Positions 1-1,971 of a stretch of 1,971 nucleotides of DNA are shown here, one piece after another. The notes under the pieces are model-generated. The model made no database searches. It worked only from the letters and a program-made list of their open reading frames with translations, and was not told where the DNA came from. The position numbers were made by a program, and so were the translations under genes. Source of the DNA: Escherichia coli. Lineage in GTDB: Bacteria > Pseudomonadota > Gammaproteobacteria > Enterobacterales > Enterobacteriaceae. Position 1 is the stretch's first letter; each line of letters starts with the position of its first letter. The DNA lies in assembly GCF_003334385.1 (NCBI RefSeq), contig NZ_QOWN01000105.1, one strand, 5' to 3'.

Positions 1-1971
1 GCTGATACTGATGCCTGCGGTGGCTTTCTTCATCACCACAACCAGCAAATCGCTGATACTTGCTGTGGGATACCAGTCATTTACCAGCCATGCTGACACC
101 GAAAACTCCAGCGTCATGTGGCCGTGACCAGCTGGCATATCAATAACACCACTGTAAATCAGTGTATTATCCAGCGCGGTACGGTTATAAATTTCAGCAC
201 CATTTTTCTTCACTATCAGGCGGCATGACGAATAAATATCGTTATTCTCCCGCTCATGTTTAGCGCCGCAGAATGCCACCGCTGGAATAACAATTTGCCT
301 GTCAAAAGGCTGATCGTCATAAATCCTGACGGTAATGGTCCCTGATGGCCACCGCTCCGGTGCCCGGGAGTCCCGCGGGAAAGCCTTACCCACTGTTTTG
401 ACAATATCGCCTTCAATCTGATTGGCTGACAGTTTCCCCTTAATCTGACAGTTCTCATTAATCGTGACGTTGTTGAGCGTCCCGGAGTTCGCATTCACAC
501 TGCCACTGATATCCGCATTTTTAGCAGTCAGCTTTCCGTCCGGTGTCAGGGAAAATGCCGGTGGATTTCCACCGCTGGTAATGGTGGGGGCCGTCAGGCG
601 TTTCAGGAACACGTCGTTCATGAATATCTGATCGCCCTGACCAACAAACATCGGTTTTGTGTTGCCATTCGCAGGATTAACCATCGCAATCCTGTCCGCC
701 GCCAGCAGCACCTGACTCTGCATGCCGTCAGGGGTGTTCTCAATACCGGCACCAATACCCGCGATATAAAGGCGTCCGTCCTGCATCTGCTGCAGCTTCA
801 CAGCCCACATGCTGTTCAGGTTATTATTTGTATCAACCTGAACCTTCTGTATCTGCTGAATTGCCGCACTCTGGTCTTCCAGTTTCTTATTGACGGTCTG
901 CGTGATTTCATTGCTGACATCCGTAATGGACGTCCTGATTTCAGCCAGGTCAGGCGCAAGCTGACCGTTATCAATCTGCGTCCACAGCTCCTGAGCCAGA
1001 TGGGTTTTCCCTATCTCGCCTTTGAAAAAATCCAGATAGCCGGATGCATCATCACTCGGCTGACCAACAGCCTCCACGAATGCCGATTTGCCAACGGTGT
1101 TCACACTGCGAACGTAAAAATAATAATCATGGCCCGGTTTGATATTGATACTGGCGGCTATCCAGTACAGCGCCGTGCCAAGATAGCGGGCTGTGGTTTC
1201 AACCTGCCTGATATCGGTAATCCGCTTTTCCGAGAACCAGAACTCAAACTGTACCGTCGGGTCATAAACGGCAAGATGCGGCGTGGCGGTTATCTGAAAA
1301 TAGCCCGGCGTCAGCTCAATCCGCGACGGCACTGCAGGTGCGGCAATCCGGAACGATACCGACGCCGGATCGCCCTGCTGCCCCCACGCATTTACCGCCC
1401 GGACTGTCAGCCTGTAGTTCCCCAGCGCCAGCTGCCTGAAGCGGTATGTGGTTTCTGTCGTCCGGGCCGTGCTGACCAGCCGCTCACTGCCGTCATCCGC
1501 TGCCACGGTCAGGCGAAGCATAAAGCTCACACCCTTCACCACCTTCGGCGTATCCCAGCGCGCCAGCACCTGATATTCCCCGCTGTCTGCGGTGACTTCG
1601 GCGGTCAGGTGCTGCACCGCTGGCGGCGTGACACCATTCACCGTGCTGCTCTGGTCGCCGTCAAAGTGCGCCCCGTTATCCACGATGGCTTCTTTTTCCA
1701 GTACATGCTGCACGGCAGTGATGGCATACGTGCCGTCATCGTTCTCACGGATACTCACACAGCGGAACAGGCGCTGACGCAACGTCGGCAGCTTCAGCCC
1801 CCACACACTGTATTCTGCAACGCCATCAGGAACCCGGTTCACTTTCACCTTAAGTCCGTCGGTGACGGACTGAACCTCCACGCTGACCGGATTACCACTT
1901 CCGTCAACCAGGCTTATCAGCGTGGTACCGGAGGATGGCAGCGTGATTTCACGGTCGAGCGTCAGCGTCCG
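1..1971 (-). CDS. J: Phage tail tip / host specificity protein J (central tail fibre), internal to C-terminal portion; partial at both window edges
   Basis: Manual translation of the reverse complement in the frame starting at position 1971 gives 657 codons with no stop. The protein reads [78 protein letters not shown]...[27 protein letters not shown]...[155 protein letters not shown]...[35 protein letters not shown] recognise this from memory as the lambda gpJ family; the fibronectin-III-like repeats, helical stalk and C-terminal receptor-binding region fit that family. No start codon is present, so the N-terminal part must lie beyond position 1971, and the stop codon must lie before position 1. 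Confidence 0.9.

What the first reader, a model, noticed from the sequence alone, without database searches (positions are those of the whole stretch)
1..1971. Window is entirely inside a lambdoid gpJ-type host-specificity gene, placing it in a phage or prophage tail module
One minus-strand frame is open across all 1971 bp and encodes a protein I recognise as the lambda J (tail tip / central fibre) family. That places the window in the tail-morphogenesis module of a lambdoid phage or prophage. By lambda gene order (established knowledge), tail assembly genes of the I/K/L/M/H type should lie beyond the right edge, and lom/stf-like side-fibre or accessory genes beyond the left edge. The window covers 657 residues; if the full protein is lambda-like in length (~1130 aa, from memory), roughly the N-terminal 40% lies beyond position 1971.
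Basis: partly seen in the sequence, partly recalled or inferred. Interest (0 to 1): 0.35.

Follow-up and report, generated by a model that had tools for sequence, protein, structure and literature searches.

The report
Prophage tail-tip J gene, C-terminal part
The window is the last 657 codons of an ordinary E. coli lambda-like prophage tail-tip gene (J), whose receptor-binding end is not lambda's LamB-binding type but a common, already characterised type that uses the porin OmpC.

Summary
One minus-strand frame is open over all 1971 bases (657 codons, P about 1e-13 by chance). It is lambda gpJ (PDB 8iyk, E = 3e-302; NCBIfam lambda_TipJ profile positions 503-1163).

- The window is not mid-gene. 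It ends on the last sense codon, and the TGA stop lies just left of position 1.
- The full protein is 1159 aa, not about 1130. 502 N-terminal residues (43%) lie beyond position 1971.
- The gene is a mosaic. The FNIII domains are about 94% identical to lambda and the alpha-helical shaft is 28 residues longer. The receptor-binding domain is only about 45% identical to lambda's. It is 90-95% identical to PhiR55_1, vB_EcoS-640R1 and many Stx/O157 prophages, and about 89% identical to the engineered '1A2' gpJ chimera, which was shown experimentally to use OmpC instead of LamB.

In relatives the neighbours are M-L-K-I upstream and lom-stf-tfa downstream, as predicted. The nearest genome is E. coli SCU-104 (one synonymous difference). 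It carries the gene in a Qin-site prophage where J is broken upstream of the window. ATCC 8739 and EM06-18-14 carry it intact. Related sequence occurs in 4620 of 5426 complete E. coli genomes. This is ordinary and already known.

The parts
1..1971 (-). The C-terminal 657 codons (residues 503-1159 of a 1159-aa protein) of a lambdoid tail-tip / central-fibre gene J. The stop codon lies just left of position 1 and the N-terminal 502 codons lie beyond position 1971.
   Evidence: Open frame. PDB 8iyk E = 2.9e-302. NCBIfam lambda_TipJ positions 503-1163 of 1163. The match ends 3 nt before the end of the 3480-nt J CDS in PhiR55_1, ATCC 8739 and EM06-18-14.
1648..1971 (-). Window aa 1-108: the end of the hub-domain region plus the linker to the first FNIII domain (lambda residues 503-610). 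About 90-100% aa identity to lambda. Boundaries are approximate.
   Evidence: Alignment to lambda gpJ. Domain names from Ge and Wang 2024, PMC11101478.
1336..1647 (-). Window aa 109-212: FNIII-1 (Pfam Ig_J).
   Evidence: Pfam PF24421, E = 6.3e-42, covering model positions 2-104 of 104.
1024..1332 (-). Window aa 214-316: FNIII-2 (Pfam Ig_J_second).
   Evidence: Pfam PF24489, E = 1.5e-39.
811..1023 (-). Window aa about 317-387: alpha-helical shaft (AHS), a non-lambda allele. It has 28 more residues than lambda and 31-33% aa identity in the two bins that flank the gap. It is 100% identical to PhiR55_1, 640R1 and PhiR70_1.
   Evidence: Alignment and binned identities. 65 of 247 phage records carry this AHS type at 95% identity or more.
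880..972 (-). Window aa 334-364: the stretch containing the 28 residues absent from lambda ([21 protein letters not shown] + QTVNKKL). It is predicted helical with heptad a/d hydrophobic spacing (a: L, I, I; d: I, V, T).
   Evidence: MAFFT gaps. AlphaFold2 single-sequence model: one helix over window aa about 339-411, with pLDDT 88-94 over aa about 346-395. Heptad scan.
394..810 (-). Window aa about 388-526: beta-sheet prism / central straight fibre (Pfam Phage_Tail_Tip). It is finely mosaic. aa 388-440 are non-lambda, aa 451-500 are nearest to lambda, and aa 501-520 are nearest to the PhiR70_1/A8 type.
   Evidence: Pfam PF09327, E = 3.8e-31, aa 370-498. Mismatch counts per 10 codons.
1..393 (-). 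Window aa 527-657: Ig-like receptor-binding domain (Pfam Ig_GpJ_C) of the PhiR55_1 / 640R1 / '1A2' type. The inferred receptor is OmpC.
   Evidence: Pfam PF12421, E = 2.6e-37. Over aa 501-657: 94.9% identical to PhiR55_1, 92-93% to Stx-phage and PPompW J proteins, 62-65% to the A8 type and about 45% to lambda. About 89% identical to the machine-read 1A2 chimera sequence. 1A2 and A8 use OmpC (PMC11338833; preprint 10.1101/2025.02.28.640725).

Best explanation
The window encodes residues 503-1159 of the tail-tip protein J of a lambda-like siphovirus prophage of E. coli. By homology to the solved lambda tail, three copies of J form the distal tail hub and the central fibre. The part in the window contributes the last hub-domain segment, two FNIII domains that wrap the closed tail tip, a trimeric alpha-helical shaft, a beta-sheet prism and a C-terminal Ig-like receptor-binding domain (RBD). 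In lambda, the RBD binds an outer-membrane porin trimer. That spreads the RBD bases, twists the prism, flips the helical shaft, releases the FNIII domains and opens the hub so that DNA can exit. Here the RBD is a different, widespread allele whose nearest experimentally tested relative (the 1A2 chimera) uses OmpC instead of LamB. The predicted receptor is therefore OmpC, probably with a preference for non-K-12 OmpC variants. The helical shaft is 28 residues (four heptads, roughly 4 nm if fully helical) longer than lambda's. What is shown: the open frame, the homology, the domain order, the mosaic structure and the gene neighbourhood in relatives. What is inferred: trimer formation, the opening mechanism (taken from the lambda structures), OmpC as receptor (from about 90% identity to a tested RBD), and whether the gene is intact in the source genome.
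For: - Open frame and its statistics.
- Homology to lambda gpJ, including solved structures.
- Pfam domain order Ig_J, Ig_J_second, Phage_Tail_Tip, Ig_GpJ_C.
- NCBIfam lambda_TipJ at profile positions 503-1163 of 1163. PHROG tail-fibre and central-tail-fibre J families.
- Mostly synonymous divergence from close relatives.
- Conserved order H-M-L-K-I-J-lom-stf in six related loci.
- Intact 1159-aa J with an identical RBD in ATCC 8739 and EM06-18-14.
- Mechanism from Ge and Wang 2024 (PMC11101478).
- RBD typing.
- The 1A2 chimera keeps lambda sequence up to about residue 960 and then carries this RBD type. It is 89% identical to the window over the readable residues of a machine-read (error-containing) sequence.
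- 1A2 and A8 deliver DNA through OmpC into lamB-deleted cells, and 1A2 works on EDL933 OmpC but not MG1655 OmpC: PMC11338833 and 10.1101/2025.02.28.640725.
- A natural long-tailed lambdoid EHEC phage (phi330) needs OmpC: PMC12502783.
Against: - No receptor experiment exists for this exact allele. It differs from 1A2 at about 10% of RBD-region residues, and the published data show that small differences between gpJ chimeras change which OmpC variants are accepted.
- The 1A2 sequence was available only as noisy machine-read text (8 frame repairs were needed), so the 89% figure is approximate.
- In the closest genome (SCU-104, 1 nt different) J is split by an internal duplication and frameshift upstream of the window, and gene M has an internal stop. 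The copy that supplied the window may therefore be non-functional.
- The helix prediction for the extra 28 residues comes from a single-sequence monomer model with mean pLDDT 70.5.
Confidence: 0.72

Rival explanations
1. Same gene, but a dead copy. The window is the still-open C-terminal part of a J pseudogene in a decaying Qin-site prophage that no longer makes tails.
For: The only genome within 1 nt of the window (SCU-104) has a 4908-nt J region annotated as two pseudogene pieces. It contains direct repeats 1428-1531 nt apart and a frame change. Its tail gene M has an internal stop. Other copies are interrupted by IS2 in E. coli AW1.7. In K-12 the Qin site holds a defective remnant (established knowledge).
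Against: The 657 codons in the window are intact. Divergence from relatives is mainly synonymous. J is intact at 1159 aa in ATCC 8739 (same site) and EM06-18-14. A recent disruption would not change what the sequence encodes.
Confidence: 0.3
2. A functional J whose receptor is not OmpC, for example LamB as in lambda, OmpF, or another porin.
For: Receptor specificity in gpJ can shift with few substitutions. An evolved lambda mutant binds either LamB or OmpF after mutation of its tail tip protein (mentioned in 10.1101/2025.11.03.685801). The window's RBD region differs from the tested 1A2 at about 10% of positions, including C568, which is Ser in PhiR55_1, 640R1 and 1A2.
Against: The RBD is only about 45% identical to lambda's LamB-binding RBD. 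Both tested non-lambda RBD types closest to it (1A2 at about 89% and A8 at 62-65%) use OmpC.
Confidence: 0.2
3. The open frame is a chance or non-coding feature.
For: None.
Against: P about 1e-13 from composition, and no shuffle exceeded 367 codons. E = 2.9e-302 to a solved protein.
Confidence: 0.001

Closest known systems
Bacteriophage lambda gpJ (tip attachment protein J; PDB 8iyk, 8xck, 8xcj; NP_040600)
   Same: Same family and the same domain order over residues 503 to the end. About 90-100% aa identity in the hub-end and FNIII region, and 100% in window aa 451-480. Same neighbours (I upstream, lom downstream) in relatives.
   Different: The alpha-helical shaft is 28 residues longer and about 31-33% identical in that stretch. 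The RBD is only about 45% identical. Total length is 1159 aa against 1132. The receptor is inferred to be OmpC rather than LamB.
J proteins of Escherichia phages PhiR55_1 (PV340571) and vB_EcoS-640R1 (ON470612), and of prophages in E. coli SCU-104, ATCC 8739 and EM06-18-14
   Same: Same 1159-aa architecture, the same long shaft and the same RBD type. 94-95% nt identity to the two phages. 98.3-99.9% nt identity to the genome copies, whose RBD is 100% identical in protein.
   Different: Small patches differ in ancestry. Window aa 451-500 are closer to lambda, and aa 501-520 are closer to PhiR70_1.
Engineered lambda gpJ chimera 1A2 (Brodel et al. 2024, Nature; PMC11338833)
   Same: Its transplanted C-terminal about 170 aa are the same RBD type as the window (about 89% identical on readable residues). 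It is experimentally OmpC-dependent.
   Different: 1A2 keeps lambda's short shaft and lambda sequence up to about residue 960. Its insert is recoded DNA. About 10% of RBD-region residues differ from the window.
Engineered chimera A8 gpJ (PDB 9wca, 9wcb) and natural PhiR70_1 J
   Same: Solved C-terminal structure. OmpC-dependent. Only 2 nt mismatches in 60 to PhiR70_1 across the prism-RBD junction (aa 501-520). The same C-terminal motif [18 protein letters not shown].
   Different: The RBD proper is only 62-65% identical and has a 5-residue insertion and a 4-residue deletion relative to the window. A8 accepts K-12 OmpC, whereas 1A2 does not.

Membership tests
Lambda gpJ / TipJ tail-tip attachment protein (NCBIfam NF049904; Pfam Ig_J, Ig_J_second, Phage_Tail_Tip, Ig_GpJ_C) | End-to-end sequence homology of the C-terminal half to gpJ, with domains in the order FNIII-1, FNIII-2, helical shaft, beta-prism, Ig-like RBD | tested here: met
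   PDB 8iyk E = 2.9e-302 over query 1-656. Four Pfam domains in the expected order. NF049904 aligned at 503-1163 of 1163.
Lambda gpJ / TipJ tail-tip attachment protein (NCBIfam NF049904; Pfam Ig_J, Ig_J_second, Phage_Tail_Tip, Ig_GpJ_C) | Whole-protein score above the NCBIfam curated cut-off (1950 bits) | tested here: inconclusive
   The score is 1196.5 bits. The window holds only 57% of the profile, so the cut-off cannot be reached by a fragment. The 98-99% identical full-length copies are named gpJ by PGAP.
Lambda gpJ / TipJ tail-tip attachment protein (NCBIfam NF049904; Pfam Ig_J, Ig_J_second, Phage_Tail_Tip, Ig_GpJ_C) | N-terminal hub domains (residues 1-502) that form the tail-tip hub with gpL | not testable with these tools
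   This part lies outside the window. It is present in the intact relatives (1159 aa) but disrupted in SCU-104.
Lambda gpJ / TipJ tail-tip attachment protein (NCBIfam NF049904; Pfam Ig_J, Ig_J_second, Phage_Tail_Tip, Ig_GpJ_C) | Position in the tail module: H-M-L-K-I upstream, lom and side tail fibre downstream | tested here: met
   Seen in six related loci. The window itself has no flanks, so this is tested in relatives up to 99.9% identical.
OmpC-using gpJ receptor-binding domains (1A2 type) | RBD sequence of the same type as the experimentally tested 1A2 insert | tested here: met
   154 of 173 readable residues are identical (89%) after frame repair of the machine-read supplement sequence. 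90-95% identical to 56 phage records of the same type.
OmpC-using gpJ receptor-binding domains (1A2 type) | Infection or DNA delivery depends on OmpC and not on LamB | not testable with these tools
   Shown only for the 1A2 and A8 chimeras. This needs an experiment with the present allele.
LamB-binding lambda-type RBD | RBD closely similar to lambda residues about 985-1132, including the receptor-contact loops | tested here: not met
   About 45% aa identity over aa 501-657. 30-60% aa identity per 30-residue bin.

The most novel reading that the evidence does not exclude
The particular combination seen here has not been characterised as such. It joins a long (+28 aa) helical shaft, a lambda-like patch in the prism, an A8-like prism-RBD junction and a 1A2-like RBD carrying a Cys at window aa 568. 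This combination could give a receptor range or a triggering behaviour different from any tested gpJ. For example, it might accept a distinct set of OmpC variants, or the longer shaft might tune how far the tip reaches through O-antigen or capsule before triggering.
Probability: 0.1. Interest if true: 0.3.

Novelty: already known. Interest (0 to 1): 0.08.

Why it matters
This matters little for discovery. It is one of the commonest prophage genes in E. coli, with related sequence in 4620 of 5426 complete genomes. Its family, structure and mechanism are well described. The practical value is in annotation. The window can be labelled as the C-terminal 57% of gpJ, with the receptor-specificity module identified as the OmpC-associated '1A2-like' type rather than lambda's LamB type. 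That is useful for predicting prophage host range and for choosing natural RBDs when engineering lambda-based delivery particles. It is also a clean small example of sub-gene mosaicism in a tail-fibre gene.

Tried and rejected
- Rfam scan of both strands at E up to 1: no match.
- Promoter-like and terminator-like sites: 2 and 3 found against 1.7 and 1.6 expected, so at chance level.
- Repeat search: only short two-copy families of 71-88% identity and one 19-nt imperfect inverted repeat. I treated these as chance.
- Plus-strand ORFs of 41-61 aa: treated as antisense by-products of the J frame.
- Looked for receptor data on the natural phage PhiR55_1. It appears only in a defence-system preprint, and no outer-membrane receptor assignment turned up in the passages I searched.
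- A 2026 receptor-prediction preprint discusses GpJ only for Drexlerviridae and excludes lambda's C-terminal domain from its alignment because it shares little or no homology with theirs.
- No paper describing the A8 gpJ structures 9wca and 9wcb was found in the library.
- I did not run the large protein-database searches or a full-length structure prediction. Solved structures at E below 1e-100 already cover every domain except the 28 extra shaft residues.

Full report
**Observation**

The minus strand of the window has one frame with no stop codon in all 657 codons. The other five frames have 4 to 46 stops. From the base composition, the probability of 657 open codons is about 1.5e-13. In 2000 shuffles the longest stop-free run averaged 135 codons and never exceeded 367. 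The open frame is therefore real and not a chance feature.

**Identity**

The translation aligns end to end with residues 503-1131 of lambda tip attachment protein J (PDB 8iyk, E = 2.9e-302). It carries four gpJ-specific Pfam domains in the expected order:
- Ig_J, aa 109-212
- Ig_J_second, aa 214-316
- Phage_Tail_Tip, aa 370-498
- Ig_GpJ_C, aa 527-657

NCBIfam's lambda_TipJ model aligns at profile positions 503-1163 of 1163. The score is 1196.5 bits against a whole-protein cut-off of 1950, which a 57% fragment cannot reach. The best PHROG families are tail fibre and central tail fibre J. Against close relatives the differences are mostly synonymous and third-position, for example 83 synonymous against 23 non-synonymous codons versus PhiR55_1. 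That is the signature of a coding sequence under purifying selection.

**Where the window sits in the gene**

In phage PhiR55_1 the J coding sequence is 3480 nt (1159 aa plus stop), and the window's match ends 3 nt before its end. The same holds in E. coli ATCC 8739 and EM06-18-14. In SCU-104 the three bases after the match are TGA. The window is therefore exactly the last 657 sense codons, residues 503-1159. Nothing is missing at the C-terminus, and 502 residues (43%) are missing at the N-terminus.

**Context in relatives**

In all six related loci examined, the order is tape measure H, M, L, K, I, J, lom, side tail fibre, with a tail-fibre assembly gene after it where annotated. The I/K/L/M/H genes lie beyond the right edge of the window and lom/stf beyond the left edge.

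The nearest sequence is the chromosome of E. coli SCU-104. It differs by one synonymous base, at window position 163. There the gene lies in a lambda-like prophage at the ydfJ (Qin) site, flanked by Qin-named genes (nohA, tfaQ, pinQ, ydfK). ATCC 8739 has a 98.3% identical copy at the same site. EM06-18-14 has a 98.7% identical copy in a prophage beside prfC. The protein of the last 370 residues, including the receptor-binding domain, is identical in all three, because all amino-acid differences lie at window aa 287 or earlier. Related sequence was found in 4620 of 5426 complete E. coli genomes, and 3347 of them cover at least 80% of the window.

**Integrity**

In SCU-104 the J region is 4908 nt instead of 3480 and is annotated as two pseudogene pieces. 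Direct repeats 1531 and 1428 nt apart show an internal partial duplication with a frame change. All of this lies upstream of the window-equivalent segment. Tail gene M there has an internal stop. J is intact in ATCC 8739 and EM06-18-14. The window alone cannot show which state its source genome has.

**Mosaic structure**

Measured against lambda, the window falls into blocks.

| Window aa | Region | Relation to lambda and other types |
|---|---|---|
| 1-300 | Hub end and two FNIII domains | 87-100% nt identity per 30-codon bin to lambda |
| 301-450 | Helical shaft and first part of the beta-prism | 44-74% nt identity to lambda, with 28 extra residues; 95.6-100% nt identity (97-100% aa) to PhiR55_1, 640R1 and PhiR70_1 |
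| 451-500 | Later part of the prism | Closer to lambda (8 mismatches in 150 nt) than to those three phages (16-19) |
| 501-520 | Prism-RBD junction | Closest to PhiR70_1 (2 mismatches in 60 nt, against 8-10) |
| 531-657 | Receptor-binding domain proper | Closest to PhiR55_1 and 640R1; far from PhiR70_1 and lambda |

This is the sub-gene mosaicism typical of lambdoid tail genes.

**The extra 28 residues**

They fall in the segment that corresponds to lambda's alpha-helical shaft. Lambda residue 838 aligns with window aa 364. The shaft helices that refold on receptor binding are lambda residues 841-861 (PMC11101478). A heptad scan gives hydrophobic a/d positions (a: L, I, I; d: I, V, T) through aa 339-359. 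A single-sequence AlphaFold2 model places aa about 339-411 in one helix, with pLDDT 88-94 over aa about 346-395 (mean pLDDT 70.5, monomer only). I infer a shaft about four heptads longer than lambda's. This long form is common. Sixty-five of 247 phage records carry it at 95% identity or more, and other records carry other shaft types, including lambda's short one.

**Receptor-binding domain and likely receptor**

A tblastn search with aa 501-657 splits phage J proteins into groups:
- 57 records at 80-95% identity. These include PhiR55_1 (94.9%), Stx1a- and Stx2a-converting phages, and the PPompW prophages of O157.
- 89 records at 60-80%. These are the PhiR70_1 type, which matches the engineered 'A8 gpJ' solved as PDB 9wca.
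- 97 records below 60%. These include lambda itself at about 45%.

Brodel et al. 2024 (PMC11338833) built lambda gpJ chimeras by fusing C-terminal parts of natural E. coli phage gpJ variants onto lambda gpJ. Chimeras A8 and 1A2 deliver DNA to lamB-deleted cells in a manner that depends on OmpC. A8 works on both MG1655 and EDL933 OmpC, whereas 1A2 works efficiently only on the EDL933 variant. A later preprint states that both recognise OmpC rather than LamB (10.1101/2025.02.28.640725).

The 1A2 gene sequence in the paper's supplement is machine-read and contains errors. A frameshift-tolerant alignment needed 8 frame repairs. It gives 154 identical residues out of 173 readable ones (89%) over window aa 480-657. 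It also shows that 1A2 switches from lambda to this RBD type at about lambda residue 960. The transplanted approximately 170 residues are therefore sufficient for OmpC specificity, and the window carries the same type. A natural long-tailed lambdoid EHEC phage, phi330, was independently shown to require OmpC (PMC12502783), although I did not compare its J sequence. I therefore infer OmpC as the receptor, with moderate confidence.

**Mechanism**

This is carried over from the lambda structures and not tested here (PMC11101478). The J trimer closes the tail tip. Binding of the RBD to a porin trimer spreads the RBD bases, compacts and rotates the beta-prism, and flips the helical shaft, part of which refolds into beta-sheet. 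That releases the FNIII domains, and the hub opens for DNA exit.

**Other features**

I found nothing else of note in the window. There was no Rfam match. Promoter-like and terminator-like sites were at chance level. Only weak short repeats were found.

**Verdict**

This is a well-known, very common gene, so novelty is 'already known' and interest is low. The only open points are whether the source copy is intact and which OmpC variants this allele accepts.

Noticed in passing
L002 (E. coli SCU-104) 17067-21974: In the genome copy that is 1 nt from the window, the J region is 4908 nt instead of 3480. Direct repeats 17203-17502 = 18734-19033 (100%) and 17799-18098 ~ 19227-19526 (98%) indicate an internal partial duplication with a 103-nt offset and a frame change. 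Tail gene M (14661-14990) has an internal stop.
   Followed up: partly
L002 about 21993-22017 (just beyond window position 1 in the source orientation): The 67-nt J-lom spacer contains a GC-rich hairpin followed by a T run (GGGCGCCAGAAATGGCGCC TTTTTT). It looks like an intrinsic terminator directly after the J stop codon.
   Followed up: no
L007 (EM06-18-14) and L008 (ATCC 8739), J at 7495-10974 in each: The J proteins are identical over their last 370 residues (including the receptor-binding domain) yet sit in prophages at two different chromosomal sites: beside prfC, and in ydfJ (the Qin site). The two prophages have different tape-measure lengths (3066 against 2562 nt). The J module has therefore moved between prophage backbones.
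   Followed up: partly
window 1-1971, plus strand frame 0: The antisense frame that is in register with the J codons has only 4 stops in 657 codons, against 29-46 in the other non-coding frames. This is a known by-product of codon bias in a GC-rich gene and not a second gene. The longest plus-strand ORF is 61 aa.
   Followed up: partly
window 1 and 1971: Both window ends fall exactly on codon boundaries, and the left end is the last sense codon. This suggests the window was cut along a gene or pseudogene call rather than at arbitrary positions.
   Followed up: no
Phage record MW057783.1, 'Campylobacter phage CJLB-4' (hit H86): A 48,361-bp record attributed to a Campylobacter jejuni phage carries a lambda-type J at lambda-like coordinates (18347-18817). 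Its match statistics are the same as those of lambda-type E. coli phages such as HK630 and DN1. This looks like lambda contamination or mislabelling of that record.
   Followed up: no
E. coli AW1.7 genomes NZ_CP073624.1 and NZ_CP072539.1 (hits H40, H41): The homologous J copy is interrupted by an IS2 element. The match is split into two pieces spanning 3307 nt.
   Followed up: no
PHROGs result for the window protein: The J fragment gives strong hits to phrog_94, annotated 'head maturation protease' (E = 2e-64), and phrog_15, 'terminase large subunit' (E = 1e-23). These probably arise from fused or mis-clustered member sequences in those families and have no biological meaning here.
   Followed up: no
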